A stretch of DNA of 62,626 bases from IMG/VR virus record IMGVR_UViG_3300045988_164134. The stretch is one strand, 5' to 3'. The notes below the pieces were generated by a model, which saw nothing but the letters and a program-made list of their open reading frames with translations, made no database searches and had not been told where the DNA came from. A program made the position numbers and the translations under genes. Shown here piece after piece: positions 28,004 through 53,600 of this stretch. The number at the start of each line of letters is the position of its first letter. The stretch's first letter is position 1. This DNA comes from a virus.

Positions 28004-28756
28004 ATGATGGAAAACACAGGATTACAGGCGGTTTATGATGTAAACAACAACCGTAACTACGACAGCTGGGGCGGCAACGGCTCATGGTTTATGTGGCTTA
28101 TCGCTATCTTTGCTATGATGTGGGGTGGCGGCGGTTTTGGCGGCTGGGGGAACAATAACGGCTTAAACCAAGTCACCAATGACTTCTTGTATACGAACCT
28201 TAACGGACGTATTAACGATGGCTTTGCAAGCACTACGCAGCAGAATTTTGACGCACAAAAGGGTACATGGCAACAGGCACAGGCGTTACAACAGCAGTTA
28301 TGCAATAATGCTATGCAACAGCAACAGAACACGCAGGATTTATTGATGCAGGGAACGGCAAATGGTTATGTTGCACAGAACAACACAAAAGATTTATTAA
28401 TGGCAATGAATGATAATCGTTTTGCTAGTCAGCAGTGTTGCTGCGAAACGCAAAAAGCAATAGCCGCTGTACAGGCTGAAAATTACCGCAATACATGTGA
28501 AATCACAACAGCCTTGCATGCAGAGGGGGAAGCAACAAGAGCGTTGATTACACAGAATACTATGCAGGAATTGCGTGATAGACTGGCAGATCGTGACCGT
28601 GACTTGCAGACAGCCAATTTCCATCTTAGCCAGCAAGCACAGAACGCAACACTTATTAGTCAGTTAAGACCATTCCCACAGCCTGCATATATTACGGCAA
28701 GCCCGTACCAGTCCGTGAATAGCGGCTGTTGCGGATATACGAATGGTTGTGCATAA
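28004..28756 (+). CDS. Hypothetical membrane/Q-N-rich protein
   Basis: SD AAGGGGGAA. N-terminal hydrophobic Gly/Trp segment WFMWLIAIFAMMWGGGGFGGWG, Q-rich helical body, and CCC and CC motifs. Confidence 0.6.
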   Translation: MMENTGLQAVYDVNNNRNYDSWGGNGSWFMWLIAIFAMMWGGGGFGGWGNNNGLNQVTNDFLYTNLNGRINDGFASTTQQNFDAQKGTWQQAQALQQQLCNNAMQQQQNTQDLLMQGTANGYVAQNNTKDLLMAMNDNRFASQQCCCETQKAIAAVQAENYRNTCEITTALHAEGEATRALITQNTMQELRDRLADRDRDLQTANFHLSQQAQNATLISQLRPFPQPAYITASPYQSVNSGCCGYTNGCA

Positions 28757-28851
28757 AACATTTTCGCAACATCACGAAAATGGTACAGTGTATGTCTACA
28801 CGTTTAGGGGCGGCGTAGACCGTCCCTATTTATTTAAGGGGGGGAATATAT

Positions 28852-29274
28852 ATGAGATGCTATAAAAAATCATCTGTAATGGCAATAAACACAACTGAAC
28901 AAGCAGTAGCAGCTAATGGTATTGTAAGTTTGGCCACAGGTAAAAAGACCGGATGCAGTATCGGGTATGTATCCGGCAGTAATGCGGTATCGCTGAAAAA
29001 TGCCGGACTGTACTATGTATCCGTTCATGCTAACGTAGAGGGGACAGCAGCAGGAGCGGCAACCTTACAGCTGCTGAATAATAACGTAGCAGTAGCAGGG
29101 GCAGCAGCAACAACTACACTTGCTAACGGCAACACGGCTAATATGTCATTTGATGCCGTTGTCAATGTACTGCCGTCGTGCAACTGCATAAACAATGCTG
29201 CATCGCTGCAAGTACAGCTGTCGGCAGCAGCTACAGTAAGCAGCATTGAAATAGTCGTTATTAAATTGGCATAA
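28852..29274 (+). CDS. BclA-C-terminal / C1q-TNF-like jelly-roll protein
   Basis: SD contains a G7 run. VSLKNAGLYYVSVHANVEG..ATLQLLNNNVAVAGAAA...ASLQVQLSAAATVSSIEIVVIKLA matches the BclA_C-type pattern (from memory). Confidence 0.55.
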   Translation: MRCYKKSSVMAINTTEQAVAANGIVSLATGKKTGCSIGYVSGSNAVSLKNAGLYYVSVHANVEGTAAGAATLQLLNNNVAVAGAAATTTLANGNTANMSFDAVVNVLPSCNCINNAASLQVQLSAAATVSSIEIVVIKLA

Positions 29275-29746: not shown

Positions 29747-29768
29747 TAAAAGGCTTTTTGTCAAGGTA

Positions 29769-29797
29769 TTGAATGTGAGTATATACTTTAGTATAAT
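29769..29797 (+). promoter_or_regulatory. Near-consensus sigma-70-type promoter
   Basis: TTGAAT, 17 nt spacer, TATAAT. Confidence 0.5.
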
Positions 29798-29801
29798 ATA
29801 G

Positions 29802-29852
29802 CTAAGTACTTGCACCAGTACTTAGGGCTAAGTGACTAACCGCATTTAGCCC
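29802..29852 (+). ncRNA. Candidate small RNA: two adjacent stem-loops just downstream of the promoter
   Basis: CTAAGTACT-TGCACC-AGTACTTAG (9 bp), then GGCTAA-N14-TTAGCC. No ORF follows before attP. Confidence 0.25.
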
Positions 29853-29900
29853 GATTCCTTTCTGTGAAAAACTGTATAGATAAAAATAGGTCTATATTCG

Positions 29901-29919
29901 CAATACACGCACAATACAC
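29901..29919 (+). repeat. Arm-type repeat pair CAATACAC x2 with 11-bp phasing (putative Int binding sites)
   Basis: CAATACACGCACAATACAC. Confidence 0.45.
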
Positions 29920-30008
29920 AAAATTAAAAAAAACGGCTTATTTGCGTTGTTCTCAGTTCTCGAAACGTTAATATTTCGTATATTTTCGTCAAAATCTATG
30001 CATATGAA

Positions 30009-30039
30009 AGACCGCACAAACATTGCATTTGTGCGGTCT
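30009..30039. terminator. Perfect 12-bp hairpin in the attP-like region
   Basis: AGACCGCACAAA-CATTGCA-TTTGTGCGGTCT followed by TTATCGTTTTT. Confidence 0.5.
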
Positions 30040-30103
30040 TTATCGTTTTTGGTTATACAATAGTTTGTATAAAACGGATAAGAAACGAGAAAAATTTTAT
30101 TTG

Positions 30104-30133
30104 TAATACACGTACAATACACGTACAATACAC
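30104..30133 (+). repeat. Arm-type repeats (T/C)AATACAC x3 with 11-bp phasing, abutting the int stop
   Basis: TAATACACGTACAATACACGTACAATACAC. Confidence 0.45.
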
Positions 30134-30139
30134 AAAAAA

Positions 30140-31159
30140 TTATATCTTGTTTATTGCTTCAATGAGTTGCTCTATTGTTTTGTGTGTATAAACCTTGTCC
30201 GTAATATCTTTACTTGCGTGCCCTAAAATCAACTGGATTGTCTTTTTATTTATATCAGCATCAGACAATAAAGTGGCACAAGTATGGCGGCCATCGTGCG
30301 GCAGATGGTCCATCTTAGATAAAATAGGGGAGCGCTCCCAAACATGTGAACGCAGCCTGTCATACGTGAATAATGGTTTTTTATCTTTTTGGCTCAGGGC
30401 AAGATATTCGCCGCCGTCCCTGTACATATCCGCAATAAATGGCATTATTTTTCTTGCAATCGGTATAATTCTGTTTTTTCCGGCAGCGGTTTTCATACCG
30501 CCGAGCATATACTGCTTATCAATAAAAACGTTCTCTCGCTTTATCCGCAGCAGCTCGGATGGACGCAGGCCGGTATAGATATAGATAAGCGCATAGCGAA
30601 CACCTATATCGCCCGTATGTTCCCGCAATGTTTTAATTTCAGGTTGTGTAAACGGTTTATGTACACGGCTTAGTGTAGCTGCTGGAAGAATTATAAATTG
30701 CGAGTAGTTCGTATTAGTTATTTCTATGCGCATTGCGTACTTATATAGCTGATTACATAAGATTTTTATATTTTTTTTAGTGCTATATCCTTTCCCGCAC
30801 TGGTCAACAGCTGCCTGCAGGTCGTCGGGGCGCAAATCTAAAAAAGGCTTATCATGCAGTGCTGCGGTCCATTTATAGGCTGATATGTAAGAGTTTGATA
30901 TATCATCATCTTTGTATTTCCACGCGGCCCATTTTTTATATATATCGGCAAATGTAAGATGGCGCGCGTCGGCATCATATGGATTATCGTTATATTCTTT
31001 TAAAAACGCCAATGCTTCTGCTCTCGTGCGAAATGTCCCTAAATATTTTATAATCTGCTTGCCATTGTCTTCCCATCCAGTCGTTATGCGCACAGCGAAA
31101 GGCTTGCGGCGCTTGCCGCCTATTTTATAAATACTGCCATATCCATTCGGTAACCTCAT
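30140..31159 (-). CDS. int: Tyrosine integrase
   Basis: SD AAAGGAG. Contains LRPSELLRIK, HLPHDGRHTCATLL, LGHAS and the C-terminal YTHKT (R..H-x-x-R..H..Y). Confidence 0.9.
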   Translation of the reverse strand: MRLPNGYGSIYKIGGKRRKPFAVRITTGWEDNGKQIIKYLGTFRTRAEALAFLKEYNDNPYDADARHLTFADIYKKWAAWKYKDDDISNSYISAYKWTAALHDKPFLDLRPDDLQAAVDQCGKGYSTKKNIKILCNQLYKYAMRIEITNTNYSQFIILPAATLSRVHKPFTQPEIKTLREHTGDIGVRYALIYIYTGLRPSELLRIKRENVFIDKQYMLGGMKTAAGKNRIIPIARKIMPFIADMYRDGGEYLALSQKDKKPLFTYDRLRSHVWERSPILSKMDHLPHDGRHTCATLLSDADINKKTIQLILGHASKDITDKVYTHKTIEQLIEAINKI

Positions 31160-36246: not shown

Positions 36247-36256
36247 GGTGCTAGTC

Positions 36257-36979
36257 ATGGAAAAGACAATTTACAAGAAACTCATGGCTGTACAGTCGGA
36301 GTTGAAAGCGCCGAAAGGCCAGTACAACAAATTCGGCGGTTACAGTTACCGCTCGTGTGAAGATATCCTTGAAGCCGTAAAGCCCTTGTTAAGCAATCAT
36401 GGGCTGGTGTTGACCATCGCGGATGAAATCAAAACCGTTGGCGACCGTTTTTATGTACAGGCAGAAGCCCGATTGATTGACGCCGACAACGGCGACGAAA
36501 TCAAGACTAGTGCTTATGCCCGTGAAGCACTGGCCCGCAAGGGCATGGACGACAGCCAGGTGACAGGTAGCGCGTCAAGCTACGCCCGCAAGTACGCCTT
36601 GAACGGTCTGTTCTGTATCGACGATAACAAGGACGCCGATACATGGAATAATGCACTTCAGAGCCGTTCTAACGCGCGTAATGATAGTCCCAAGGGTAAT
36701 TACACCAAAGCAGGACGACAGGCCGAAAAAACCGCGTCTAGCTCGTCTCAGACGCAAAAAAAGCCTACATCTGTTGACGACTATTACCAGCTCGTCATTG
36801 ACTGGGCTAGAGCAAACGAGGCCGTCATGTTCATCGGGCCGTTGCTCAAAGAAAAATTCAACAAGGGGCATTTCAAAGAATTGTCCCTTGCAGAGGCCAA
36901 GGCCTTCTACGAAAACGTAGGCAAATTAGTCAATGCGGCGAAGGCCAAAGACGACGCTGCACTGATGGAAGGCGTATAG
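36257..36979 (+). CDS. ERF-family single-strand annealing protein
   Basis: KKLMAVQSELKAPKGQYNKFGGYSYRSCEDILEAVKPLLSNHGL ... QVTGSASSYARKYALNGLF. Confidence 0.85.
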   Translation: MEKTIYKKLMAVQSELKAPKGQYNKFGGYSYRSCEDILEAVKPLLSNHGLVLTIADEIKTVGDRFYVQAEARLIDADNGDEIKTSAYAREALARKGMDDSQVTGSASSYARKYALNGLFCIDDNKDADTWNNALQSRSNARNDSPKGNYTKAGRQAEKTASSSSQTQKKPTSVDDYYQLVIDWARANEAVMFIGPLLKEKFNKGHFKELSLAEAKAFYENVGKLVNAAKAKDDAALMEGV

Positions 36980-36980
36980 C

Positions 36981-37529
36981 ATGAAATTCCATGTGAAGGG
37001 TGTGCAGGTGCTCAAAGGGAACAGCGGCTATATGCTGCTGATTCCCGCACCGCTCACCGAAGATTTGAATAATATCAAAGTGGATGGCGATTACTCCATT
37101 GAGATTAAGCGCCATTCAGAAAAACGCTCATTGAACGCTAACTCCTACTGCTGGGTATTGTGCCAACGGATAGCCGAAAAATTATCCAGCGACGGCCAAT
37201 ATGTCAGCAAAGAAGAAGTGTATCGCGGTGCCATCCAAGATTCTCAAGGATTTACCCCGATATGCGTCCAGAAGAAGCTGGCGGCCAGCGTGTGCCGGGA
37301 CTGGCGTCACAACGGTATTGGATGGATTGCCATTGATACCGGGGCCAGCAAGGTCAAGGGCTGTACCGTCCTGCACTTATACGCCGGCTCAAGCGTATAT
37401 GACACGCACGACATGAGCCGACTGATTGACTGCCTTGTCGATGAGGCCCGTCAGATTGGCGCGAACGTCGAGGACCGGGAATGGGTCCAGACGCTCATTG
37501 ATGATTGGAGGCCCGAACAAGATGATTGA
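36981..37529 (+). CDS. NinB/Orf-like recombination mediator (tentative)
   Basis: EKRSLNANSYCWVLCQRIAEK parallels lambda NinB RNRSLDQNRKLWACLGDVSRQ. Confidence 0.45.
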   Translation: MKFHVKGVQVLKGNSGYMLLIPAPLTEDLNNIKVDGDYSIEIKRHSEKRSLNANSYCWVLCQRIAEKLSSDGQYVSKEEVYRGAIQDSQGFTPICVQKKLAASVCRDWRHNGIGWIAIDTGASKVKGCTVLHLYAGSSVYDTHDMSRLIDCLVDEARQIGANVEDREWVQTLIDDWRPEQDD

Positions 37530-37926
37530 CTTATACCCTCGCAAATGTAATATATGCGGCGGTCCTGTCCGACTCGTCGACAATAGCCGGGTATACTCCC
37601 CGGAATATGCCAGTCTTCACCCCGGAAAGGTGTATCTGTGCCAGCGATGCGGGGCATACGTCGGGTTGCATCCTCACTCGCATCGGGCGCTGGGGATTCT
37701 GGCAAGCCGGAAAATGAGGCGAGCCAGGATGTACTGTCATGATTTGTTTGATAGCTTCTGGCAAGGGCGGCGCCACGCCCACCGCAAACGGGTACGGGCT
37801 TACACCGAACTGGCCAGGCGGCTAGGAATTCCCGTAGAAGAATGTCACTTCGGGTGGATGACCGTTCCAGAAATGCGGGTTGCCTACCGGCACTTGCTGG
37901 ACATGAAGAAGGAGGGCTGGCGATGA
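37522..37926 (+). CDS. Zinc-ribbon protein
   Basis: ATGA coupling to the upstream gene. Contains CNICGGPV...CQRCGAYVGLHPHS. Confidence 0.55.
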   Translation: MIDLYPRKCNICGGPVRLVDNSRVYSPEYASLHPGKVYLCQRCGAYVGLHPHSHRALGILASRKMRRARMYCHDLFDSFWQGRRHAHRKRVRAYTELARRLGIPVEECHFGWMTVPEMRVAYRHLLDMKKEGWR

Positions 37927-38186
37927 ATAGACGTAAACGTCGTGACGACGCGCTATACCGAAAGAACCGCCTTCCGGCTTATGAACGGGCTGGCGGCGTA
38001 TGTGAGAACTGTGGCGCACCGGCTGCGGAAATACATCACATTACATTCCGGTCCCACTGCGGGACGAGCGATTTAGATAACCTCATCGTATTGTGCCGGG
38101 ACTGTCATGAAAAGGCACACGGTCCCGACGCAAAAGCGATGAGAGAAAGTTTTAGGGAGATAAGAAGAAATGGAAAGGAAATTTAA
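37923..38186 (+). CDS. HNH endonuclease
   Basis: CENCGAPAAEIHHITFRSHCGTSDLDNLIVLCRDCHEKAH. Confidence 0.85.
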   Translation: MNRRKRRDDALYRKNRLPAYERAGGVCENCGAPAAEIHHITFRSHCGTSDLDNLIVLCRDCHEKAHGPDAKAMRESFREIRRNGKEI

Positions 38187-38961
38187 AGGCATATGGATTC
38201 CTGCCGAACTATGGAACTCAAAAGGACTTAGTTTGCAAGAGAAATGCTTGATAGCCGAGATTGATAGCTTCACTGAGTTCTGGATGAGCAATAAAGCCAT
38301 TGGAGAGTTTCTAGGGGTATCCAAGGACCGTGCAAAACAAATCGTCGCCAAGATGAAGGATGGCGGAATTATCAACGTTGAAACGACCAGGGATGCAGAA
38401 ACAAAACAAATTCTCAAGCGGACTATCACCGTATCAAACGATTTTAAGCGAAAAATATTTGAAGCATCATTAAATAAAAAAGTTGATGATTACCCTAGTG
38501 GGGTAGAAAATTCCCCCAGGGGTGGGGTAGAAAATTCCCCCAGGGGTGGGGTAGAAAACTACCCAGAGAGTAATAAATCTTTTTATAACAAATCTTCTTT
38601 AGATAATAAGGGGGATAAACCCCCAGCGCTCCCCCAGGTATCTAAAAAGAGCAAACGGTTTGTAAAGCCTACCTTGGATGACGTTCAAGCGTACTGCCAA
38701 GAACGTCAGAACAATGTAGATCCGGAAAGCTTCGTCGACTTCTACGAAAGCAAAGGTTGGAAGGTTGGCAACCAGCCCATGAAGGACTGGGAGGCAGCTG
38801 TACGGACGTGGGAACGACGGGACAACAACCGTCCGCGGTATAAGACCCGCGACGAACGGCTGCGGGAAGATGACGCACGGAGAGAAAGGATGTGTAAAGA
38901 ATATGACGAGCAACACAGCCAATCAAGTTTTGAAGATATTAAGAGGCTCTTATCCAAATGA
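38170..38961 (+). CDS. Replication initiator / replisome organiser (wHTH N-domain, DnaD-like C-terminal region)
   Basis: FKGIWIPAELWNSKGLSLQEKCLIAEIDSF...NKAIGEFLGVSKDRAKQIV, with C-terminal PTLDDVQAYCQERQNNVDPESFVDFYESKGWKVGNQPMKDWEAAVRTW. Confidence 0.75.
   Translation: MERKFKGIWIPAELWNSKGLSLQEKCLIAEIDSFTEFWMSNKAIGEFLGVSKDRAKQIVAKMKDGGIINVETTRDAETKQILKRTITVSNDFKRKIFEASLNKKVDDYPSGVENSPRGGVENSPRGGVENYPESNKSFYNKSSLDNKGDKPPALPQVSKKSKRFVKPTLDDVQAYCQERQNNVDPESFVDFYESKGWKVGNQPMKDWEAAVRTWERRDNNRPRYKTRDERLREDDARRERMCKEYDEQHSQSSFEDIKRLLSK
38498..38566 (+). repeat. 2.8 x 24-bp tandem iterons inside the initiator gene (candidate ori)
   Basis: GTGGGGTAGAAAATTCCCCCAGGG x2, then GTGGGGTAGAAAACTACCCA. 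Each unit contains GGGG..CCCC, and an A-rich tract lies just upstream. Confidence 0.7.
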
Positions 38962-39472
38962 CGCCTGGAAGCTGAGTGGCCAGAATGGCGATGAATTTAT
39001 TGGCGCGATGATGCTCCAACTTGAACGCTACAGCGACGGTGACGTCCTGCGGGCCGTTGGCCGTGTGATTGACAGCGCCGACACTATGCCGAGCGTGACG
39101 ATGATCAAGAAAGAAGTTAAGCGGAAAATCAACGCCGTGCCGGACTACCAGGCACTACCGGAAGCGCCGGTCAACGAAGCCGGGCGCAAGCGCATCCACG
39201 ACATGATAAGCGGCCTTAGAAGCCAATGGAAGCGGCCGGACAAGGAAAAGAAACCGCCGTCGCTGGATGACGTGCCGAAAGACGTCATCGAATTCGCCCG
39301 CCGGGCCGTTCCAGGAATCCCGGACGAACTGATTATCAAGAACATCCCCGCCTTCAAAGATGGGATGTCCTGTAACATGCGCATGGGCAACGAATACATG
39401 CGCTTTTGGCTAGACCCGAACACAGGACTTGTAAGCATGACCATTGTCATGAAGAGAGGAGTAGCGAAATGA
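38903..39472 (+). CDS. Hypothetical replication-module protein
   Basis: Long ORF in operon orientation. The start is uncertain (38870, 38903 or 39008). Confidence 0.45.
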   Translation: MTSNTANQVLKILRGSYPNDAWKLSGQNGDEFIGAMMLQLERYSDGDVLRAVGRVIDSADTMPSVTMIKKEVKRKINAVPDYQALPEAPVNEAGRKRIHDMISGLRSQWKRPDKEKKPPSLDDVPKDVIEFARRAVPGIPDELIIKNIPAFKDGMSCNMRMGNEYMRFWLDPNTGLVSMTIVMKRGVAK

Positions 39473-39876
39473 AGACATGTATGATGTGCAGCAAGGAATT
39501 CAACCAGGACTATAGATCACAGAAATTGTGCAAGGAATGTCTGGACAAATTCACGAAGCGCTACTGGGACTGGAACGAATACCGAAAGCAGGGCCATACA
39601 CGGCGACCGACCTGTATCGTGTGCGATAAGCCGTTGACAAGCGGATTCAGCGTATGCCCGGATTGCCGGGAAGCATGGAAACATATTTACTACGAAATCA
39701 CGCGTCCCAAAACATTGATACAAGCAAGAAAACGGATGGCACGCAACCGGCATCAACAGCCTGGGCTTGAAACTCAGTTACAACCAACAAAGTTGGATGA
39801 CGATATCACGGCCGCCCGCAAAGCGGGAATGTCGTACGGCATTTACATGGCAAGAAAGAAGGGACTGGTACGATGA
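39469..39876 (+). CDS. Cys-rich zinc-ribbon protein
   Basis: ATGA coupling and SD AGAGGAG. Contains CMMCSKEF...CKEC...CIVCDKP...CPDC. Confidence 0.55.
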   Translation: MKTCMMCSKEFNQDYRSQKLCKECLDKFTKRYWDWNEYRKQGHTRRPTCIVCDKPLTSGFSVCPDCREAWKHIYYEITRPKTLIQARKRMARNRHQQPGLETQLQPTKLDDDITAARKAGMSYGIYMARKKGLVR

Positions 39877-40463
39877 ACGCTATCAGCCGGGCGCTGGCAA
39901 GGCGTGACAGGGCGCGTACAGAGTTACGACGTGAAGCCGGGGCCGAAAGCGGTACGGACTGGGCAACGACATTGCTGTTTAGCTGCCTTCACGACAAGTA
40001 CGGGTTCGGCCGCAACCGGTTCGCCGCGATGGACGACATGTGGACGCACCTCGACGAATTCCAGGAAGGTTTCATTTTCGACTGGCGCGATGAATTGTGT
40101 GAACATGGATTCGACCGTTTCCTAAACGAACGTATCGCCGAAAGGATGCAGAAAATGATAACCGGCCGGACGCGCGATCTGAAACTCATGGCGAAGACAC
40201 GCGACATGATAGCCGGAGTAGCCATCGTCATATTCTGGACGCTGTACACGAAATACAAATGGCGTGACAAACGTCTCAAAGATTTGCAGAACTACTACAA
40301 AGACAAAGTCCACGTACTGACTCACAACGAAGTGCCCATATGGGAGTTCATGAAATGCCTCAATGTAGAGTGCAACATAGATTACCCGGCACTGAAAGCG
40401 TATGAGAAACAGAACGGACCAGTCGATATATACCACGGCAACCGTGGAGAAAGGAATAAATAA
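39873..40463 (+). CDS. Hypothetical protein
   Basis: ATGA coupling. No motif recognised. Confidence 0.55.
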   Translation: MNAISRALARRDRARTELRREAGAESGTDWATTLLFSCLHDKYGFGRNRFAAMDDMWTHLDEFQEGFIFDWRDELCEHGFDRFLNERIAERMQKMITGRTRDLKLMAKTRDMIAGVAIVIFWTLYTKYKWRDKRLKDLQNYYKDKVHVLTHNEVPIWEFMKCLNVECNIDYPALKAYEKQNGPVDIYHGNRGERNK

Positions 40464-40464
40464 C

Positions 40465-40692
40465 ATGAATATTGACAAGAAATCAACGCTTTGTGCGCTA
40501 TTGGTGGAACAGAAAAAAGAATTATGTGAATATTATTGCCACCATGAAAAGCTCGACGACTGTTGCATAATGCGTCGCCCGTGTGGCAGCTCCAACATTG
40601 CCCCGGACGATATAGACTGGTGCCCGGCTACCTGGAATCATGGAGACGCCTGCATGATAGAACAGCTGGTTATTGAATTGTTTGGTTGCTAA
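40465..40692 (+). CDS. Small Cys-rich protein
   Basis: The ATG lies 2 nt after the previous stop. Nine Cys in 75 aa. Confidence 0.5.
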   Translation: MNIDKKSTLCALLVEQKKELCEYYCHHEKLDDCCIMRRPCGSSNIAPDDIDWCPATWNHGDACMIEQLVIELFGC

Positions 40693-40722
40693 ATACGAGA
40701 GGGATAACAGGAGGAAATCAAA

Positions 40723-41385
40723 ATGAAGAAATTACAGGTAACTATCGAACTCATCGAAGAAATGTTGGGGACAGCGAACAGCGACCCGAAGATTCATGAA
40801 GAATTCATCGCGTCGAAAGCGCCGGACGCCGCCAGCCGGGAAGAAGAAGTCGAAGCGCTGGGAGTGGAAGCCGTCGTCGAAAAGGGCAAGACGATTTTCC
40901 CGAAGGAAGACGGCAAACCGTTTGTCTACTCGTATCAAATCCGCGGGTTCTTCAAAGCGGCCGCCGGATTCTTGCAGCGTTGCAAAGGCGAAAAATTCGC
41001 CGCCCACACGAATAAAATCAAGGCTTACAAGAAAGTCATCGACGGCTGTATATTTGTCGAACCGCGGAAAATCATGATTGAAATGCCGAAAGGCGCTGAA
41101 ATCGGTGACTGCCAGCGGCCGTTGAGAGCGCAGACCGCACAGGGCGAACGCGTGGCACTGGCAAACAGTGAAAGCGTACCGGAAGGCAGCCGAATGACAT
41201 TTACAATCGAAATCGACAACGAAGCCTATACGGACGCCGTCCTGGAATGGCTGGCCCATGGTAGTAAAAACGGGCTGGGACAGTGGCGGAACTCCGGCAA
41301 AGGACGGTTCAAGATTGTTGACATCAAAGAAATCAAGGATGCGGAAAGCGAAGTCGACCGTATCAAGAAAATGCTGAAAGGCTAA
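40723..41385 (+). CDS. Hypothetical protein with C-terminal Gly-rich loop GLGQWRNSGKGRF
   Basis: SD AGGAGGAA. Balanced composition and operon orientation. The long antisense ORF over it is judged spurious. Confidence 0.6.
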   Translation: MKKLQVTIELIEEMLGTANSDPKIHEEFIASKAPDAASREEEVEALGVEAVVEKGKTIFPKEDGKPFVYSYQIRGFFKAAAGFLQRCKGEKFAAHTNKIKAYKKVIDGCIFVEPRKIMIEMPKGAEIGDCQRPLRAQTAQGERVALANSESVPEGSRMTFTIEIDNEAYTDAVLEWLAHGSKNGLGQWRNSGKGRFKIVDIKEIKDAESEVDRIKKMLKG

Positions 41386-42120
41386 GGCCGACAGCAAGCG
41401 AAGAGAAGCAAAGGCACAGTTTTGTGTGGTTGTGTGATGCAAAGGCACGGTACTGTTCCGCGGTGTGACGTGGCGTAACGGCATAGCTCTGTATAGTTGA
41501 GTGAAGGCATGGCACGGTGCTGCGAAGGCGAGGCCTCGAATAGTATCGTAACAGCAGCGCAATGTGGCGCAACGCAAAGGCAAAGTAGCGTCGCGCAGGG
41601 TGCAGTAGCGCCCAGCAAGGCAAAGGCCGTGTATAGCCAAGAAATGTGACGGCAGAGCAAGGCCTGGTTGAGTACAGCAGCGGCATAGCATCGTAGCATT
41701 GAGCAAGGGCAAAGTAAGGTTACGCGGTGGTATGGCAATACATAGCGCTGTGAGGGCGATGAAAGGCAACACCACGTAATGGAAAAGCAGGGTATAGTCA
41801 CGTAAAGGAAAAGTAAAGTTAAGTAAAGTTTGGCGAGGCGGAGGCATAGCATTGTAACGTTTGGCATAGCACAGCCAGGGCAATGCATGGCAATGACTTG
41901 TCATGAACGTGTTGCAATGGAATGGCAATGCATAGTGGTGTTTCGCAGGGTAAAGGCGTGGTAGCGTGACGCAATGGCTAGGTACAGCCTTGTGCCGTCC
42001 GGCCATGGATACGCATAGTAGTGCAGTGTGGTGTAAAGGCATTGTTAAGCAGTGCTGATTATAGCCATGGTATGGCGACGCAACGTTTGGCCTGGTAACG
42101 GCCAACATCATAAAAAAAGG
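41386..42120 (+). repeat. Non-coding, G-rich/C-poor degenerate-repeat tract
   Basis: No + strand ORF of 60 aa or more. About 20 GGCA-centred words: GGCATAGC x4, GCAAAGGCA x3, GGCAATGCAT x2, and tandem AAGTAAAGTT x2. All minus-strand frames are open as a side effect of the composition. Confidence 0.6.
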
Positions 42121-42131
42121 AGTGACAGACA

Positions 42132-42527
42132 ATGAACACAATCACAGTAATCGGCAACATTGGCAAGGACCCGGAAAGCCGGGTCACTGCCAAAGGGACG
42201 CCCGTCGTGACGTTTTCGGTAGCGGATAACAAGAAGCTGCCGGGGACGAGCGGCAAGAGCAAGGAAGACTGGACAAGTCAATGGTGGTACTGCACCGCAT
42301 TTAAGGAGCTGGCGGAAGCCATTGTCCAGGATGTCAAGCGCGGCGATCGCGTAGAAGTGACAGGCAAAATAGATATGCATGAATACACCGCTAAGGACGG
42401 TACACAGAAAGTAGCATATAACTTGCTTGTCAATCGCATTGCGAAGGTTGTACGGCCAATGAGGACCAATAACGGCGGTTTTAACAGCATGGGTAGCGAA
42501 GTCGCCGATGAAGAAATCCCATTCTAG
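42132..42527 (+). CDS. ssb: Single-stranded DNA-binding protein
   Basis: SD AAGGAG. Contains NTITVIGNIGKDPESRVTAKGTPVVTFSVA...WW.C.AF and the acidic tail DEEIPF. Confidence 0.9.
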   Translation: MNTITVIGNIGKDPESRVTAKGTPVVTFSVADNKKLPGTSGKSKEDWTSQWWYCTAFKELAEAIVQDVKRGDRVEVTGKIDMHEYTAKDGTQKVAYNLLVNRIAKVVRPMRTNNGGFNSMGSEVADEEIPF

Positions 42528-42542
42528 AGAGGAGCAATCAAA

Positions 42543-42827
42543 ATGAAAAACATCACAAAAAAACAGTTTATCGACACGGTAGCACAGCGTAGCGGCAAGA
42601 CAAAAGGCACTTGCGCCCGTATCGTGGACGAAATGTTGGGGACTATCGCAGACCTCGTAGCGCAGGACTGCAAGATTACCTTTGTCGGGTTCGGTTCATT
42701 TGAAAAGAAATACGTAGCGCCCCGCACAACACGCAACCCCCAGACCGGGGAAATGATGGAAACGACTGGCCATAACAGCATGAAATTCAAGGCCGGAAGT
42801 ATCTTGAAAGAACGGCTTAATCAGTAA
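42543..42827 (+). CDS. HU/IHF-family DNA-binding protein
   Basis: KKQFIDTVAQRSG.TKG....VDEMLGTIADLVAQDCKITFVGFGSFEKKYVAPRTTRNPQTGE. Confidence 0.9.
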   Translation: MKNITKKQFIDTVAQRSGKTKGTCARIVDEMLGTIADLVAQDCKITFVGFGSFEKKYVAPRTTRNPQTGEMMETTGHNSMKFKAGSILKERLNQ

Positions 42828-42840
42828 GCGGTGATGCAAT

Positions 42841-43035
42841 GTGACACGCTGCTATTACTGTCATAAGAAACTCACGGGCTACCGGCACTATGTGGTGACG
42901 GTAGACGGGAAACTCATGCCGGTATGTGCAGATGATCGGGAATGTCGGCCACGGGCGATAAAGTGCCACGGGCCGCGACCCGGCGTCGCACACCAGGCAA
43001 GGAACAAAGTGTTAGAAAGGAACAAGCATAAATGA
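42841..43035 (+). CDS. Small Cys-containing protein (GTG start)
   Basis: The only ORF filling the gap. No SD seen. Confidence 0.4.
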   Translation: MTRCYYCHKKLTGYRHYVVTVDGKLMPVCADDRECRPRAIKCHGPRPGVAHQARNKVLERNKHK

Positions 43036-43268
43036 TGGACATTAAAATCAAGAAAATCCTCGACAATTACAGCAAAGACGACGTGAAACTGCCGCTCATC
43101 ACGGAAGGAAACGCTTGCTATGACTTTTACGCGCCCGCGAAATTCGTCATCTATCCCGGCGAACACGGCGTCAAGATTCCGTCGGGGCTGGCGTTTGAAA
43201 TCCCGGAAGGCTACTGCATGATGCTCTTCATGCGCTCCAGCTACGGCGCAAAGCGGGAACTGCTTTAG
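43032..43268 (+). pseudogene. Truncated trimeric dUTPase (N-terminal ~78 aa only)
   Basis: LPLITEGNACYDFYAP...IYPGEHGVKIPSGLAFEIPEGYCMMLFMRSSYGAK covers dUTPase motifs 1-2. The GxIDxDYRGE motif and later motifs are absent. The stop coincides with a GC-to-AT composition break. Confidence 0.6.
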
Positions 43269-43383
43269 GAAATATAAAGAAGCGCAAGCGAATGCAGGCA
43301 TAATGATGAAACGGCTGATAAGAGCCAGGAATCTATTGAGGAAGTTGCGTGATGAATAACAGGATCTCTTGGGAGGAAATAAA

Positions 43384-43974
43384 ATGAAAAAAGAAGATAT
43401 TTTAGTTGGTAATGATGTTTACTTTATCGCTGGCGACGGTAAATTATATCCATGTCGTGTAATTGCGTATGATTCAGAAGACACAGATATACCTTTTCTA
43501 GTGTCTTTCGGCAGCAACTTGGACAGTGCCCCAGACGATGTTGGGTGGAGAATATCGAAAAGCGACATAAGCGAAGAAGATGGTGTGGGAGAAGATGTCG
43601 TACATAAGCATCATGGCGAGTTAGCGAAATGGGCTAGATTAGATGAGTTACTATGGCCACGGCTCGTCAAACTGGAAGATTGCAGTATGAAAACTAAGGA
43701 TGCATATCCGGAAACGTACTGGTTGGAAGAAAATGCACATGATGCCGTCAATCATCCGTCACACTACTGCCGAGACGGTATAGAATGCATTGATGTAATT
43801 AAGGCTACAACTAAAGGCCTGAGTGCATTTGATGCCTTCTGTCAGGGCAATGCAATGAAATATTTATTCAGATGGCAGTTTAAAAACGGTGCGGAAGATT
43901 TAAAAAAAGCACGGTGGTATATAGATAAATTATTAGAACAATGGGACGGGCAAGTAAACAACAAAGGAGATTAG
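43384..43974 (+). CDS. DUF3310-domain protein
   Basis: SD GGGAGGAA. The C-terminal part VNHPSHYCRDGIECIDVIKA...FCQGNAMKYLFRWQFKNGAEDLKKARWYIDKL matches the family. Confidence 0.7.
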   Translation: MKKEDILVGNDVYFIAGDGKLYPCRVIAYDSEDTDIPFLVSFGSNLDSAPDDVGWRISKSDISEEDGVGEDVVHKHHGELAKWARLDELLWPRLVKLEDCSMKTKDAYPETYWLEENAHDAVNHPSHYCRDGIECIDVIKATTKGLSAFDAFCQGNAMKYLFRWQFKNGAEDLKKARWYIDKLLEQWDGQVNNKGD

Positions 43975-43976
43975 AC

Positions 43977-45290
43977 ATGTGTTTCAAGTATACACTAGGC
44001 AGTTTATTCGATGGATTAGGCGGTTGGCAAATAGCTGCAATGCGAGCAGGAATACAGCCGATATGGTCAAGCGAAATAGAAAAATTTACGTGTGCTTTAA
44101 CTAAAGTTAGATTTCCAGATACGGAACAACTCGGAGATATTACTAAAATCGACGGCGGAACAATTCCGCCAGTCGATATAGTAACAATGGGAAGCCCGTG
44201 CCAAGATTTAAGTATAGCAGGAAGGAGAGAGGGACTTGCAGGAAAAAGAAGTGGGTTGTTTTTACGAGCAACAGAATTTATTCGACAAATGCGAGAAAGA
44301 TACCACGAATGGTATCCCAAAATCGTTATTTGGGAAAACGTACTGGGGGCATTTTCAACCAATCGAGGGGCTGATTTTCAAGCCGTGCTCGAATCGTTCA
44401 CAGAAACCCATATTCCAATGCCTAGAGGTGGGCGATGGGCAAACGCAGGAATGGTTAGAAGCAACAAGTGTAACATCGTGTGGAGAACATTGGACGCCCA
44501 GTATTGGGGAGTCCCCCAGCGTCGTCGTAGAATCTTCCTTGTTGTCGATTATACAAGAGGATGCACCGAAGAAATATTATTTAAGCCCGAAAGCTTGTCT
44601 TGGGATATTGAACAGAGCAAAGAGCAAAGGGAAAGAATTGCCGATAGAACTTGTAAAGGGTTTGGAGGTTCAGTCGCGTATTGTATAAGAAATTCAATTA
44701 TAAACCGAAAACAAGAAAATGGTGGTAATGGATTGGGCATTAGTAAAGAAATTTCTTATACACTTGATACAACCGGAGCGTATGCTGTAGCTGTAATTGC
44801 CGACAAAGATGATAATCAGAGAGTGTTTGATATGTCATATAGAGCTAACGTTATTAGGGAACAAAAAGGTGATGAATGTTTTGAAAAAGCAGTGCCATTT
44901 GACATGACGCATGCAAACGACGTTATCAGAGAAAACCGTGGCAGCATTCATACGCTGCAGGCACGCATGGGAACCGGCGGGAATCAGATACCACTTATCT
45001 ATGCAAGACCTTCATATGCAGATTTAAAGCAAGATGAAACTGCCGTTACATTAAGAGCAAGCGGCGGTTCCAATGGCGGTGGAAGCGAAAATCTTGTCGC
45101 TGATAAATTGTTAAGGAAATTAACTCCGCTGGAATGTGAGCGCCTACAGGGGCTTCCGGATAATTGGACGTTAATAGATGACAAGTCGTGCAGCGACAGC
45201 GCCAGATACAAAGCAATCGGAAATGGCATGGCTCAACCGTGCGCGGATTTTGTAATGAAAAGAGTGTGCGAATTTTTACAGAATAGCTAG
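43977..45290 (+). CDS. DNA (cytosine-5) methyltransferase
   Basis: SLFDGLGGW, GSPCQDLSIAG, WENV, QRRRRIFLV, ECERLQGLPDNWT and IGNGMA. Confidence 0.9.
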   Translation: MCFKYTLGSLFDGLGGWQIAAMRAGIQPIWSSEIEKFTCALTKVRFPDTEQLGDITKIDGGTIPPVDIVTMGSPCQDLSIAGRREGLAGKRSGLFLRATEFIRQMRERYHEWYPKIVIWENVLGAFSTNRGADFQAVLESFTETHIPMPRGGRWANAGMVRSNKCNIVWRTLDAQYWGVPQRRRRIFLVVDYTRGCTEEILFKPESLSWDIEQSKEQRERIADRTCKGFGGSVAYCIRNSIINRKQENGGNGLGISKEISYTLDTTGAYAVAVIADKDDNQRVFDMSYRANVIREQKGDECFEKAVPFDMTHANDVIRENRGSIHTLQARMGTGGNQIPLIYARPSYADLKQDETAVTLRASGGSNGGGSENLVADKLLRKLTPLECERLQGLPDNWTLIDDKSCSDSARYKAIGNGMAQPCADFVMKRVCEFLQNS

Positions 45291-45304
45291 AAAGAGGTGA
45301 GCAA

Positions 45305-45727
45305 ATGGTTTATAAATTTATCATACATGGACGACCGATGACTAAGAAAAACAGCATGACCAAGACCCGCTATGGACTCATCCAGTCCAAGCAGTACCGT
45401 GATTATGAAAAAATGGCCCTGTGCCAGCTGATGATCCAGAAGCCGAGAAACTTCCGTACGATTGCTTGCGCGGTCCGGATGAATGTCGAATACTATATGC
45501 CGGACCGCAGGGGCTGGCCTGATTTGTTCGGGCTGGTCCAGGCGACGGCCGACATTTTAGAGAAAGCCGGCATCGTAGAAGACGACGGCTATATCGCCGA
45601 TGTGGCCTACAGCTGCATCGCAGGCGTCGATCCGGTATGGCCACGCGCTGAAATCAAGGTCATCCCCATTCCGGACGACAAGCTCAACGAACTGCATCCC
45701 AAGCTCAGAAAGAGGTGTATCGAATGA
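45305..45727 (+). CDS. rusA: RusA-family Holliday junction resolvase
   Basis: FIIHGRPMTKKN... PDRRGWPDLFGLVQATADILEKAGIVEDDGYI. Confidence 0.8.
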   Translation: MVYKFIIHGRPMTKKNSMTKTRYGLIQSKQYRDYEKMALCQLMIQKPRNFRTIACAVRMNVEYYMPDRRGWPDLFGLVQATADILEKAGIVEDDGYIADVAYSCIAGVDPVWPRAEIKVIPIPDDKLNELHPKLRKRCIE

Positions 45728-45822
45728 CTCATTTTCTAAGCTGCCTATGCGGCAGTTAACTACAGGAAACGCAGCGGGGCGACGGCGGTTTTGGAAGCAT
45801 TGGGAAATTTTAAGGAGAATAA

Positions 45823-53525: not shown

Positions 53526-53600
53526 GGCGAGTTAATTTAACGGTCAAAATGCACGACTTATAATCGTGTCTTGCCGGTTCGAATCCAGCACTTGCCACCA
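53526..53600 (+). tRNA. tRNA with anticodon UAU (reads AUA, Ile), CCA encoded
   Basis: Hand-folded cloverleaf. Acceptor GGCGAGT/ACTTGCC (one G-U pair), D stem ATTT/AAAT, anticodon stem CACGA/TCGTG, anticodon loop CT-TAT-AA, T arm GCCGG-TTCGAAT-CCAGC (one C-A mismatch), discriminator A, CCA. Confidence 0.8.

What the first reader, a model, noticed from the sequence alone, without database searches (positions are those of the whole stretch)
41386..42131. ~740-nt non-coding, strand-asymmetric tract built from degenerate GGCA-centred words, between an unknown gene and ssb
Seen in the sequence:
- This is the largest gap in an otherwise tightly packed genome, with no + strand ORF of 60 aa or more.
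- The + strand is visibly G/A/T-rich and C-poor.
- About 20 occurrences of short related words are present. GGCATAGC occurs at 41480, 41682, 41843 and 41863. GCAAAGGCA occurs at 41408, 41439 and 41574.
- GGCAATGCAT occurs at 41879 and 41924, and a perfect tandem AAGTAAAGTT x2 lies at 41811-41830.
- GGCA-to-GGCA distances cluster around 26-36 nt without a strict period.
- TAG/GAG triplets are dense.
- As a by-product all three minus-strand frames stay open for 100-250 codons. Their translations almost lack Asp, Glu, Lys and Gly, so I treat them as non-coding.

Inference, three possible roles:
- a protein-binding array, such as a second or alternative origin, a primosome or ssDNA initiation site, or a partition-like site next to ssb and HU;
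- a long non-coding RNA carrying many copies of a short motif, analogous to the protein-sponge RNAs CsrB/RsmZ or to TRAP-type (G/U)AG arrays;
- a decoy for a host defence.

It is not a CRISPR array, because the repeats are degenerate and there is no repeat-spacer regularity. I do not recognise it as any described element.
Basis: partly seen in the sequence, partly recalled or inferred. Interest (0 to 1): 0.7.

Follow-up and report, generated by a model that had tools for sequence, protein, structure and literature searches.

The report
Phage VIPR guide-RNA repeat array
The "non-coding tract" is an array of about 144 five-base repeats that pairs with the small Cas7-like gene just upstream to form a VIPR system, a phage RNA-guided DNA-silencing device related to CRISPR and first described in 2026 preprints, so it is real and striking but no longer unknown.

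Summary
It is a quasi-periodic array of 144 units, G-Y-N-N-N, with period 5.15 nt and Fourier power 29. That is by far the strongest periodic signal in the window.

It belongs to the "unknown" 220-aa gene upstream (40723-41385), not to ssb. In 121 of 128 related loci from at least eight phyla, an array of the same period directly abuts a homologue of that gene. It always lies on the gene's strand, downstream, upstream or on both sides. No other neighbouring gene is conserved.

The protein models as a single-domain RAMP. Its closest solved folds are type VII Cas7 and type III Csm3. It has a G-loop, GLGQWRNSGKGRF.

This matches VIPR systems (bioRxiv 10.64898/2026.04.26.720920 and .720927). In VIPR, a phage RAMP protein, Vipr, polymerises one protomer per pentanucleotide repeat on a vrRNA. 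The variable bases then guide gapped pairing to DNA and silence competing phages.

This clade uses the published alternative repeat YNNNG. A canonical GGC(A) unit recurs about every six units. The arrays have no 3' tail and no ribozyme, and there is no conserved accessory gene.

I found no targets, so the guide function here is inferred. Verdict: a new member of a known kind.

The parts
40723..41385 (+). vipr-like gene. It encodes a 220-aa single-RRM RAMP protein (Cas7-like) with a G-loop, G184-L-G-Q187-W188-R189-N-S-G-K-G-R-F196.
   Evidence: - **Databases.** No Pfam or PHROG hit. At least 7855 unnamed homologues.
- **Fold.** AlphaFold2 model with pLDDT 80. Top Foldseek PDB hits are type VII Cas7 (E = 6e-9), Csm3 and Cas7-11. 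An HMM search of PDB sequences gives type VII Cas7 at E = 0.003.
- **Link to Vipr.** A model of the SUSP1-type Vipr shows the same order of secondary-structure elements. Both models hit the same five BFVD proteins.
41387..42105 (+). Pentanucleotide repeat array, the presumed vrRNA array. It has 144 units of consensus G-Y-A/n-W/n-N (YNNNG in the register used by the VIPR paper). 118 units are 5 nt and 24 are 6 nt.
   Evidence: - **Periodicity.** Fourier peak at 5.15 nt with power 29.
- **Conservation among 14 relatives.** Column entropy is 0.14 at the anchor G and 0.52-0.58 at the three N positions.
- **Indels.** Gap lengths between relatives cluster at 5, 10, 15, 20/21, 26, 31 and 62 nt.
- **RNA features.** No predicted stable RNA fold, z = -1.1. 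No Rfam family and no hammerhead.
- **Transcription signals.** No promoter-like or terminator-like site on the + strand between the RAMP gene and ssb.
41408..41416 (+). Example of the recurring punctuation motif G-C-a-A-n-G|G-C-A. It is a 6-nt unit ending in an extra G, followed by a canonical GGC unit. The 24 six-nt units recur every 4-9 units through the array. GGCA occurs 18 times, for example at 41413, 41444, 41480, 41579, 41619, 41651, 41682, 41708, 41734, 41765, 41843, 41879, 41924 and 42038.
   Evidence: - **Positions.**
- **Conservation.** The extra G is as conserved as the anchor G, with entropy 0.145.
- **Motif logo.** Built from 252 and 1809 sites.
- **Spacing.** In 162 loci the spacing peaks at 5, 6 and 7 units, with counts 568, 621 and 434.
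42089..42103 (+). Short GC hairpin GGCC-TGGTAAC-GGCC at the 3' edge of the array, just before the ssb ribosome-binding site (GGAG at 42119-42122). It may be a 3' boundary or cap, but its status is uncertain.
   Evidence: Present in all 14 relatives. In three of them one stem position is mismatched (GACC) and there is no compensating change. It is not a predicted terminator.

Best explanation
Together, 40723-42105 is a VIPR (Viral Interference Programmable Repeat) system of a temperate Megasphaera-type phage.

The proposed mechanism is as follows.

1. The 220-aa protein is a Vipr-type RAMP.
2. The tract is transcribed with the gene on the + strand, giving vrRNA.
3. One protein protomer binds each ~5-nt unit and builds a helical filament.
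4. The invariant G and the following pyrimidine of each unit are flipped into pockets formed by the G-loop (W188, R189) and the thumb.
5. The variable bases of successive units are presented together as a non-contiguous guide.
6. The guide pairs with gapped complementary DNA in a competing phage or prophage and silences its transcription.

**Shown here**
- The periodic array.
- Selective conservation of the G (and GG) scaffold against variable N positions.
- Strict linkage of the array, same strand and abutting, to this protein family across phyla.
- The RAMP fold and G-loop.
- The same structural neighbourhood as the experimentally characterised SUSP1 Vipr.

**Inferred from the two VIPR preprints, not shown for this clade**
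- Transcription and processing of the array.
- One protomer per unit.
- Guide function, the pairing rule and the targets.
For: 1. **Array.** Period 5.15 nt, power 29, 144 units G-Y-N-N-N. This is the YNNNG variant that the VIPR paper lists beside YNNGG.
2. **Linkage.**
   - 78 of 80 viral loci and 72 of 80 genome loci encoding a 41-99% identical protein carry an array of period 5.1-5.2 next to the gene.
   - Of 128 loci with enough flank, the array is downstream in 71, upstream in 29, on both sides in 21 and absent in 7. The median distance from array edge to gene edge is about -9 nt.
   - The array is always on the gene's strand.
   - This is the locus layout the paper describes, with vipr flanked by long intergenic ncRNA regions.
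3. **Only conserved neighbour.** No other conserved neighbouring gene was found.
4. **Protein.**
   - RAMP fold.
   - A BFVD homologue at 56% identity is already labelled "Cas system-associated RAMP superfamily protein".
   - The SUSP1-type Vipr model (pLDDT 94) has the same order of elements. This includes the helical bundle between strand 1 and strand 2, the thumb hairpin, and the helix, G-loop and final strand.
   - That model retrieves the window family's representative A0A8S5R426 as hit 3 (E = 3.7e-8, TM 0.61). The same four other viral proteins appear in both searches.
5. **Residue logic.**
   - In SUSP1 Vipr, H17 and D177 read G1, R138 and W178 hold G2, and R179 helps form the Y3 pocket.
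   - The window family keeps W188 and R189, which are invariant or nearly so. It has T17 and an invariant Q187 where SUSP1 has H17 and D177.
   - This fits a repeat that keeps G-Y and has lost the first G.
6. **Scaffold and variable positions.**
   - The scaffold is conserved and the N positions vary.
   - The 5' half of the array is replaced wholesale among relatives whose flanking proteins are 92-98% identical.
   - Indels come in whole units.
7. **RNA properties.** The RNA is predicted to be unstructured.
8. **Positive control.** The same period scan recovers the one upstream and three downstream vrRNAs published for phage SUSP1.
Against: - **Weak sequence homology.** Similarity to the characterised type II Vipr is marginal. 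hhalign gives E = 3e-4 to 4e-3 at probability 9-39%, and only the C-terminal G-loop module aligns robustly.
- **Non-canonical unit.** The unit is NGY/NNN, not the canonical GGY/NN. 16% of units are 6 nt, so the period is 5.15 nt rather than 5.0.
- **No punctuation between guides.** There is no conserved 3' tail or pseudoknot, no ribozyme and no per-guide promoter.
- **No vap partner.** No conserved accessory gene was found.
- **No target.** No natural target emerged under any of 8-12 gapped pairing rules.
- **Type not assigned.** I could not see the paper's type table or figures, so I cannot confirm that this clade is among its 667 systems.
Confidence: 0.82

Rival explanations
1. The RAMP protein does coat the repeat RNA, but the filament is not a DNA guide. 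It could be an anti-CRISPR or anti-defence decoy that mimics a Cas7-crRNA backbone or sequesters host Cas subunits. It could also be a scaffold with some other role.
For: - The protein is Cas7-like.
- The phage also carries a solitary type I-F-like CRISPR repeat 3.6 kb downstream. That is the hallmark of RNA anti-CRISPRs (PMC10651486, listed).
- No targets were found.
- The arrays are far longer (up to 1145 nt) than the 9-16-unit guides of characterised VIPRs.
Against: - The N positions are hypervariable while the scaffold is conserved. A pure decoy has no need for that.
- The same protein and array architecture occurs in hosts from eight or more phyla, whatever their CRISPR type.
- In characterised relatives with this locus layout, the array RNAs act as guides.
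Confidence: 0.08
2. The tract is a cis-regulatory leader or trailer, like TRAP on the trp leader or T4 gp32 on its own mRNA. The protein would bind the periodic G-Y sites in its own transcript to control expression of itself or of the downstream ssb.
For: - In this window the array is the 5' UTR of ssb and the 3' UTR of the RAMP gene, with no promoter-like or terminator-like site in between.
- A period of 5-6 nt resembles the spacing of TRAP sites. That comparison rests on my own knowledge, not on a tool result.
Against: - The downstream gene is not conserved. SSB is present in 14-24 of 153 loci.
- Arrays lie upstream, downstream or on both sides of the gene.
- 100-230 units is far more than a regulatory switch needs.
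- The N positions turn over rapidly.
Confidence: 0.04
3. It is a DNA-level element: a replication origin or iteron field, an R-loop or primosome initiation zone, or a binding array for SSB or HU. The first reader's first option was of this kind.
For: - It sits in the replication and recombination module. Erf, NinB, an O-like initiator, SSB, HU and RusA are all nearby.
- The G-rich non-template strand has GC skew around 0.3.
- The 5.15-nt period is close to half a DNA helical turn. That is my inference.
Against: - The element is strand-locked to the RAMP gene in about 150 loci.
- It tracks that gene and not initiator, ssb or HU genes.
- There are no iterons of 10-22 bp, only degenerate 5-mers.
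- The scaffold and variable pattern fits a protein reading single-stranded RNA, as solved for VIPR.
Confidence: 0.04
4. It is a neutral, decaying pentanucleotide microsatellite produced by slippage, with no function.
For: Indels occur in unit multiples.
Against: - The anchor G is 90-93% conserved over about 16,800 units in 162 loci from many phyla, while the other positions vary.
- The period is constant at 5.1-5.2 nt everywhere.
- The linkage to one protein family is obligatory.
Confidence: 0.01

Closest known systems
VIPR systems (Vipr protein plus vrRNA), as characterised for type II in Escherichia phage SUSP1 and a Pseudomonas fulva prophage (bioRxiv 10.64898/2026.04.26.720920 and 10.64898/2026.04.26.720927)
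   Same: - The system is phage-borne.
- The protein is a single small RAMP (about 20-25 kDa) with an RRM core, helical bundle, thumb and G-loop.
- Tandem pentanucleotide repeats lie in the intergenic DNA flanking the gene, on its strand.
- A conserved G/Y scaffold alternates with hypervariable positions.
- W and R of the G-loop are conserved.
- The repeat consensus YNNNG is one of the alternatives the paper lists.
   Different: - The first G of GGY is not conserved, except about once every six units. The residues that read it in SUSP1 (H17, D177) are T and Q here.
- There are three variable bases per unit, not two.
- 16% of units are 6 nt, giving a period of 5.15 nt. SUSP1 has exactly 5.0.
- There is one uninterrupted array of 144 units, and up to about 230 in relatives. 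SUSP1 has separate ~100-nt vrRNAs of 9-16 units, each with a structured tail.
- There is no conserved vap gene.
- Protein sequence similarity is marginal.
- Targets and the pairing rule are unknown.
Class 1 CRISPR-Cas backbone (Cas7, Csm3 or Cmr4 filament on crRNA)
   Same: - The protein fold is the closest among solved structures (type VII Cas7, Csm3, Cas7-11).
- One protomer binds each short RNA segment, with a thumb and a G-loop.
- The RNA acts as a guide.
   Different: - There is no repeat-spacer array and there are no other cas genes.
- The periodicity is about 5 nt with a sequence-specific G-Y in every unit. Cas7 filaments use 6 nt and are sequence-independent.
- The system is encoded by the phage, not the host.
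TRAP bound to the trp leader (G/U)AG repeats
   Same: A protein oligomer reads a short motif that recurs every 5-6 nt on otherwise unstructured RNA.
   Different: - The motif is G-Y, not (G/U)AG. TAG and GAG are not enriched.
- There are 144 units rather than 11.
- The protein has a RAMP fold, not the TRAP beta-sandwich ring.
- It is not an attenuator.
RNA anti-CRISPRs (Racr; solitary CRISPR repeats in phages, PMC10651486)
   Same: Both are phage non-coding RNAs that engage RAMP-type proteins. A candidate Racr lies in the same window at 45733-45760.
   Different: - The tract does not mimic a CRISPR repeat.
- It comes with its own RAMP gene.

Membership tests
VIPR | A small stand-alone RAMP protein (single RRM core, G-loop, thumb, helical bundle) encoded outside any CRISPR-cas locus | tested here: met
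   - AlphaFold2 model and Foldseek or HMM hits to Cas7 and Csm3.
- G-loop GLGQWRNSGKGRF.
- Same order of elements as the SUSP1-type Vipr model.
- No other cas genes or CRISPR array are adjacent.
VIPR | Sequence or structure homology to an experimentally characterised Vipr (SUSP1 ALH47069) | tested here: inconclusive
   - **Sequence.** Profile against the single SUSP1 sequence gives E = 0.0036 at probability 9%, collinear over the full length. Profile against profile gives E = 3e-4 to 5e-4 at probability 33-39%, covering only the C-terminal 27-47 columns.
- **Structure.** This is stronger. Reciprocal Foldseek searches return the same five BFVD proteins. Vipr hits the window family's representative at E = 3.7e-8, TM 0.61.
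- No solved VIPR structure appeared among the listed PDB hits.
VIPR | Tandem pentanucleotide repeats in the intergenic DNA flanking vipr, on the same strand | tested here: met
   - Period 5.15 nt and 144 units.
- 121 of 128 related loci have an abutting array on the same strand.
VIPR | Canonical repeat consensus YNNGG (GGY/NN) | tested here: not met
   - The unit is G 93%, Y 89%, then three variable positions. The base before the anchor G is G in only 23% of units.
- This equals YNNNG, which the paper names as an alternative vrRNA repeat.
- A canonical GGC unit recurs about every six units.
VIPR | Conserved scaffold bases alternate with hypervariable guide bases | tested here: met
   - Column entropy among 14 relatives is 0.14 for G, 0.145 for the extra G, 0.47 for Y and 0.52-0.58 for the N positions.
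- The 5' half of the array is replaced between relatives whose flanking proteins are 92-98% identical.
VIPR | Each vrRNA is capped by a conserved structured 3' tail, or guides are separated by ribozymes or staggering | tested here: not met
   - There is no significant RNA fold (z = -1.1).
- There is no hammerhead or any other Rfam family.
- Only a weak 4-bp hairpin sits at the 3' edge.
- The +1 register shifts at the GG units might correspond to the paper's "staggered arrays". Its figure S18 is not available to me.
VIPR | Associated vap accessory gene (six vap families for seven types) | tested here: not met
   - No neighbouring protein cluster is shared by more than 57 of 153 loci. That one is a generic HTH regulator at variable distance and on either strand.
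- The paper says loci "typically" have a vap, so this feature is not strictly required.
VIPR | vrRNAs are expressed and co-purify with Vipr, with one protomer per repeat | not testable with these tools
   This needs small-RNA sequencing, pull-down or cryo-EM.
VIPR | Guide bases match DNA of competing phages under a gapped rule (xNN for type II) | tested here: inconclusive
   - No excess over reversed-order controls for 8-12 rules, in 1.25 Mb and 2.45 Mb of phage DNA.
- Two exact IMG/VR pattern scans gave 0 hits.
- The databases at hand hold few Megasphaera phages.
CRISPR-Cas class 1 | Repeat-spacer array, a multi-gene cas operon and a 6-nt Cas7 periodicity | tested here: not met
   - There is no repeat-spacer regularity.
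- There is a single RAMP gene.
- The period is 5.15 nt.
TRAP-type (G/U)AG RNA site | About 11 GAG or UAG triplets spaced by 2-3 nt, and a TRAP (MtrB) protein | tested here: not met
   - TAG and GAG are not enriched.
- The motif is G-Y.
- The partner protein is a RAMP.
Phage replication origin or iteron array | Iterons of 10-22 bp with an AT-rich unwinding region, linked to the initiator gene and independent of orientation | tested here: not met
   - There are only degenerate 5-mers and no long direct-repeat family above 60-78% identity.
- The element is linked to the RAMP gene and strand-locked.

The most novel reading that the evidence does not exclude
This very large, mostly gut-phage clade (at least 7855 proteins) may be a VIPR architecture not yet characterised. 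Its distinguishing features would be:
- uninterrupted arrays of 100-230 units without tails or ribozymes;
- three variable bases per unit;
- loss of the G1-reading residues (H to T, D to Q);
- a conserved GCaAnG|GCA punctuation about every six units.

That spacing is roughly one turn of the published Vipr filament, which has 6 subunits per turn free and 5 per turn on DNA. It gives a universal period of 5.15 nt.

This would imply one of two things. The reading rule could differ, for example 3 nt per protomer. Or there could be a long continuous or multi-guide filament whose register is reset once per turn.
Probability: 0.3. Interest if true: 0.7.

Novelty: new member of a known kind. Interest (0 to 1): 0.5.

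Why it matters
- **Annotation.** This converts an "unknown gene plus odd non-coding tract" in a Megasphaera-type temperate phage into a recognisable two-part RNA-guided system. It also shows that the partner of the tract is the upstream RAMP gene, not ssb.
- **Detection.** A simple Fourier scan for a G period of 5.1-5.2 nt beside a ~200-aa RAMP gene finds such systems reliably. It succeeded in 121 of 128 loci and recovered the SUSP1 positive control. This is a practical way to annotate VIPR arrays that repeat finders, TRF and Rfam all miss.
- **Abundance.** The clade is very abundant in gut metagenomes and spans at least eight phyla.
- **Constraints on the clade's mechanism.** Two regularities limit how this clade's filament can read its RNA and are directly testable. 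They are a constant 5.15-nt period caused by a conserved GG unit about once per six units, and the matching substitution of the residues that read the first G in SUSP1 Vipr.
- **If the guide function holds.** The array would record which competing phages this phage fights.

Tried and rejected
1. **Recoded protein gene (TAG or TGA reassignment).** Rejected. All three stop codons interrupt all three + frames, with 12, 14 and 20 stops. The period is also not a multiple of 3.
2. **Minus-strand gene (469-aa ORF).** Rejected. It is an artefact of the scarcity of TTA, CTA and TCA on the + strand. No homologous ORF family exists beyond antisense shadows.
3. **Known RNA families, tRNA, hammerhead.** None found.
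4. **Tandem or direct repeat tools.** TRF sees only the 20-nt AAGTAAAGTT pair. The repeat finder gives overlapping families at 60-78% identity. The order appeared only with Fourier analysis, autocorrelation and a dynamic-programming parse.
5. **Link to ssb or HU, or a conserved accessory gene.** None found.
6. **Second array elsewhere in the window.** The weak G-period signal at 29750-30150 is not a GY array. It holds integrase-proximal direct repeats.
7. **Do the three variable bases look like codons?** TAA and TAG are depleted (0.65 and 0.59 of expected) but TGA is not (1.19), and TA dinucleotides are depleted in general. The result is inconclusive.
8. **Target search.** This led nowhere.
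   - Exact 18-nt gapped seeds against 1.25 Mb.
   - Seed-and-extend against 2.45 Mb, including 80 Ant-region loci fetched for the purpose.
   - IMG/VR scans of a 12-unit abN pattern and a 7-unit abc pattern.
   - No rule beat its reversed-order control.
9. **Assigning a VIPR type (I-VII).** Not possible. The type table and figures are not held as text.
10. **Sequence bridging to SUSP1 Vipr with broader profiles.** This stayed marginal.
Full report
**1. The observation**

The region 41386-42131 lies between the stop codon of a 220-aa ORF (40723-41385, + strand) and the start of an SSB gene (42132-42527). A gene for an HU-like protein follows at 42543-42827.

The tract holds no + strand ORF above 50 aa. 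It is G-rich and C-poor, with G 247, A 213, T 146 and C 140.

The words are strongly enriched over dinucleotide-preserving shuffles:
- GGCATAGC occurs 4 times against 0.1 expected.
- GCAAAGGCA occurs 3 times against 0.1 expected.
- GCA[AT][AT]G occurs 21 times against 3.7 expected.
- Repeated 7-mers give z = 8.

The claim that TAG and GAG are dense does not survive that control. TAG is 18 against 15.5 expected and GAG is 10 against 11.3.

All three + frames carry all three kinds of stop codon, so this is not a gene with a reassigned stop codon. The long open minus-strand frames, including a spurious 469-aa ORF at 40732-42141, follow from the scarcity of TTA, CTA and TCA on the + strand.

**2.

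- The Fourier spectrum of G has one sharp peak at period 5.15 nt, with normalised power 29. The spectrum of A peaks at the same period with power 20.8.
- In a sliding scan of the whole 62.6-kb window, the thirteen best 300-nt windows all start between 41351 and 41951. Nothing elsewhere exceeds about 10.
- Autocorrelation peaks at lags 5, 10/11, 15/16, 21, 26, 31 and onward beyond 190 nt.
- A dynamic-programming parse turns 41387-42105 into 144 consecutive units: 118 of 5 nt, 24 of 6 nt and 1 of 4 nt.
- G is at position 1 in 135 of the 144 parsed positions. In the 5-nt units, position 2 is C or T in 89% and position 3 is A in 54%.
- The 6-nt units almost always end in an extra G and are followed by GCA.
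- TRF, the repeat finder, Rfam and ARAGORN all fail to see the array.

**3. What it belongs to**

Fourteen IMG/VR relatives have flanking proteins 92-98% identical to the window's. Their tracts are 512-746 nt long. The 5' half is largely non-homologous between them and the 3' half is conserved. All are built from the same units.

The upstream protein has no Pfam or PHROG family, yet it has at least 7855 homologues in metagenomes. I fetched 80 viral and 80 bacterial-genome loci encoding 41-99% identical proteins and scanned them for periodicity.
- 78 of the 80 viral loci and 72 of the 80 genome loci have a tract of period 5.1-5.2 immediately beside the gene.
- Of 128 loci with enough flank, the array is downstream in 71, upstream in 29, on both sides in 21 and absent in 7. 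The edge of the array lies within tens of nucleotides of the gene.
- The array is always on the gene's strand.
- Hosts span Clostridia, Negativicutes, Bacteroidota, Actinomycetota, Planctomycetota, Synergistota, Elusimicrobiota, Acidobacteriota, Chloroflexota and Patescibacteria. The closest host is Megasphaera sp., at 91% identity.
- No other neighbouring gene is conserved. SSB occurs in 14-24 of 153 loci and HU in 1.

So the tract is the partner of the upstream gene, not of ssb.

**4. The protein**

An AlphaFold2 model (pLDDT 80) finds Cas7 of type VII CRISPR (E = 6e-9), Csm3 of type III and Cas7-11 as its best solved neighbours. A family profile hits type VII Cas7 and Csm4 by sequence.

The C-terminus carries a RAMP glycine-rich loop, GLGQWRNSGKGRF. 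Q187 and W188 are invariant and R189 is nearly invariant across a 20-sequence alignment with 40% mean column identity.

In the viral structure library, a 56%-identical protein is already labelled "Cas system-associated RAMP superfamily protein".

**5. Comparison with what is known**

A literature search found two linked preprints from April 2026. They describe VIPR systems as follows.
- They are mostly borne by phages.
- A ~20-kDa ancestral RAMP protein, Vipr, is flanked by long intergenic regions that encode vrRNAs.
- The vrRNAs are made of tandem pentanucleotide repeats. The consensus is YNNGG, with alternatives NNNGG, YNNNG and NNNNG.
- In the cryo-EM structures, one Vipr protomer binds one repeat in a right-handed helical filament. 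The filament has six subunits per turn when free and five when on DNA.
- The GGY bases are flipped into protein pockets. H17 and D177 read G1. R138 and W178 hold G2. R179, E71, M72, C173 and T175 form the pyrimidine pocket.
- The NN bases pair with target DNA while skipping every third target base. This silences genes of competing phages.
- Seven types are reported, with variable array architecture: separate tailed vrRNAs, staggered arrays, or ribozyme-separated arrays. There are six vap accessory families.

**6. Membership tests**

As a positive control I fetched phage SUSP1. Its 195-aa Vipr gene (28474-29061, minus strand) is flanked by one upstream and three downstream GGYNN tracts. My scan finds them at period exactly 5.0.

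Sequence homology between the window family and the SUSP1 family is marginal. E is 3e-4 to 4e-3, and only the strand, helix and G-loop module at the C-terminus aligns robustly.

Structure is clearer.
- The SUSP1-type model (pLDDT 94) has the same succession of elements at nearly the same residue numbers. These are strand 1, a helical bundle, strand 2, helix 1, the thumb hairpin, a helix, the G-loop and the last strand.
- Both models retrieve the same five proteins from about 350,000 viral models. Vipr hits the window family's representative at E = 3.7e-8.

The residue pattern fits the repeat pattern.
- The window family keeps W and R, the contacts for G2 and Y3.
- It replaces both G1 contacts, H17 by T and D177 by an invariant Q.
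- Its repeat keeps G-Y and has lost the first G.

Among 14 relatives the anchor G and the extra G are conserved, with column entropy 0.14. Y varies between C and T (0.47), and the three N positions are the most variable (0.52-0.58). Indels come in whole units or in whole units plus one base. The RNA is predicted to be unstructured (z = -1.1).

Several features are not met.
- The canonical GGY/NN consensus.
- A conserved 3' tail or ribozymes.
- A conserved vap gene.

I could not read the paper's type table or figures. I therefore cannot say which type this clade is, or whether it is among the 667 systems in the paper.

**7. Features peculiar to this clade**

I parsed 162 loci, giving 193 segments, 88 kb and about 16,800 units. 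Of these units, 83% are 5 nt, 16% are 6 nt and 1% are 4 nt. This gives the same 5.15-nt period everywhere.

The 6-nt units carry a specific motif, G-C-a-A-n-G followed by G-C-A. In the Megasphaera group the A at position +3 is present in 91% of sites.

These units recur every 5, 6 or 7 units, with counts of 568, 621 and 434. That is about one turn of the published filament. The coincidence is my inference, not a result.

Arrays are long. The median segment is 450 nt and the longest is 1145 nt. Here the array has no internal promoter-like or terminator-like sites on the + strand. It is therefore probably co-transcribed with the RAMP gene and ssb, and processed afterwards.

**8. Targets**

I tried to find natural targets under 8-12 pairing rules. 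These used two or three of the variable bases per unit, with 0-3 skipped target bases.
- Exact gapped seeds against 1.25 Mb.
- Seed-and-extend against 2.45 Mb, including 80 loci fetched around homologues of the window's Ant gene.
- Two exact pattern scans of IMG/VR.

No rule exceeded its reversed-order control. The guide function and the pairing rule therefore remain inferred for this clade. The sequence at hand holds few Megasphaera phages, so this is weak negative evidence.

**9. Verdict**

The element is best explained as a Vipr protein with its vrRNA array, with confidence about 0.8.

The kind was described in 2026. This locus is a new member, from a temperate Megasphaera-type phage that carries an integrase, a repressor and Ant. 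It has the YNNNG repeat and an unusually long, punctuated array.

The rival readings are each unlikely, for the reasons given in their entries. They are a non-guide RNP or anti-CRISPR decoy, a cis-regulatory leader, a DNA-level origin or R-loop site, and a neutral microsatellite.

The most novel reading still open is that this abundant gut-phage clade uses a distinct array architecture or reading rule. I put its probability at about 0.3.

Noticed in passing
window 45733-45760 (- strand): A single 28-nt type I-F-like CRISPR repeat, GTTAACTGCCGCATAGGCAGCTTAGAAA, matches Rfam CRISPR-DR4 at 45.3 bits. It lies in the intergenic region after the RusA-like gene. There are no spacers and no second copy in the window. 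It is a candidate solitary-repeat RNA anti-CRISPR (Racr). IMG/VR holds no exact copy.
   Followed up: partly
L013 4589-5250 and L014 4589-5250 (relatives of the window locus): A ~200-aa HNH/AP2-type ORF resembling a homing endonuclease is inserted in frame at the 3' end of the vipr-like gene. The match to the window protein stops at residue 196. The inserted ORF ends with the same KKMLKG as the intact protein. The repeat array follows it.
   Followed up: no
window 29895-29925 and 30100-30140: Direct repeats of CAATACACG[C/T]ACAATACAC flank an AT-rich stretch just upstream of the integrase gene (30140-31159, - strand). They are probably integrase arm-type or attachment-site repeats. This region gave the only other, weak, period-5 signal in the window, and it is not a GY array.
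   Followed up: partly
window 40732-42141 (- strand): A 469-aa ORF runs antisense through the RAMP gene and the whole array. It exists only because the + strand lacks TTA, CTA and TCA. An automatic gene caller could mis-annotate it.
   Followed up: yes
window 13281-25247 (+ strand): A single 3988-aa ORF lies in the structural half of the phage. I did not examine it.
   Followed up: no
window 53526-53600 (+ strand): A tRNA-Ile gene with anticodon TAT, the only tRNA in the window.
   Followed up: no
L177 19891-20040, L178 4336-4500, L193 921-1125, L204 19776-19970, L226 9981-10140, L231 13101-13265, L253 12086-12235: Short period-5 G or C segments occur in unrelated phages that I fetched through the Ant homologue. 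They are probably further VIPR-type arrays. I did not check them for an adjacent RAMP gene.
   Followed up: no
window 36248-45727: The VIPR locus sits inside a recombination and replication module. The neighbours are an Erf-like annealing protein, NinB/Orf, an O-like initiator, SSB, HU, a DUF3310 protein, a C5 cytosine methyltransferase and RusA. In other phages the same RAMP gene lies next to RecT, SSB or SbcC-like genes. The early-region placement seems general, but no partner gene is fixed.
   Followed up: partly
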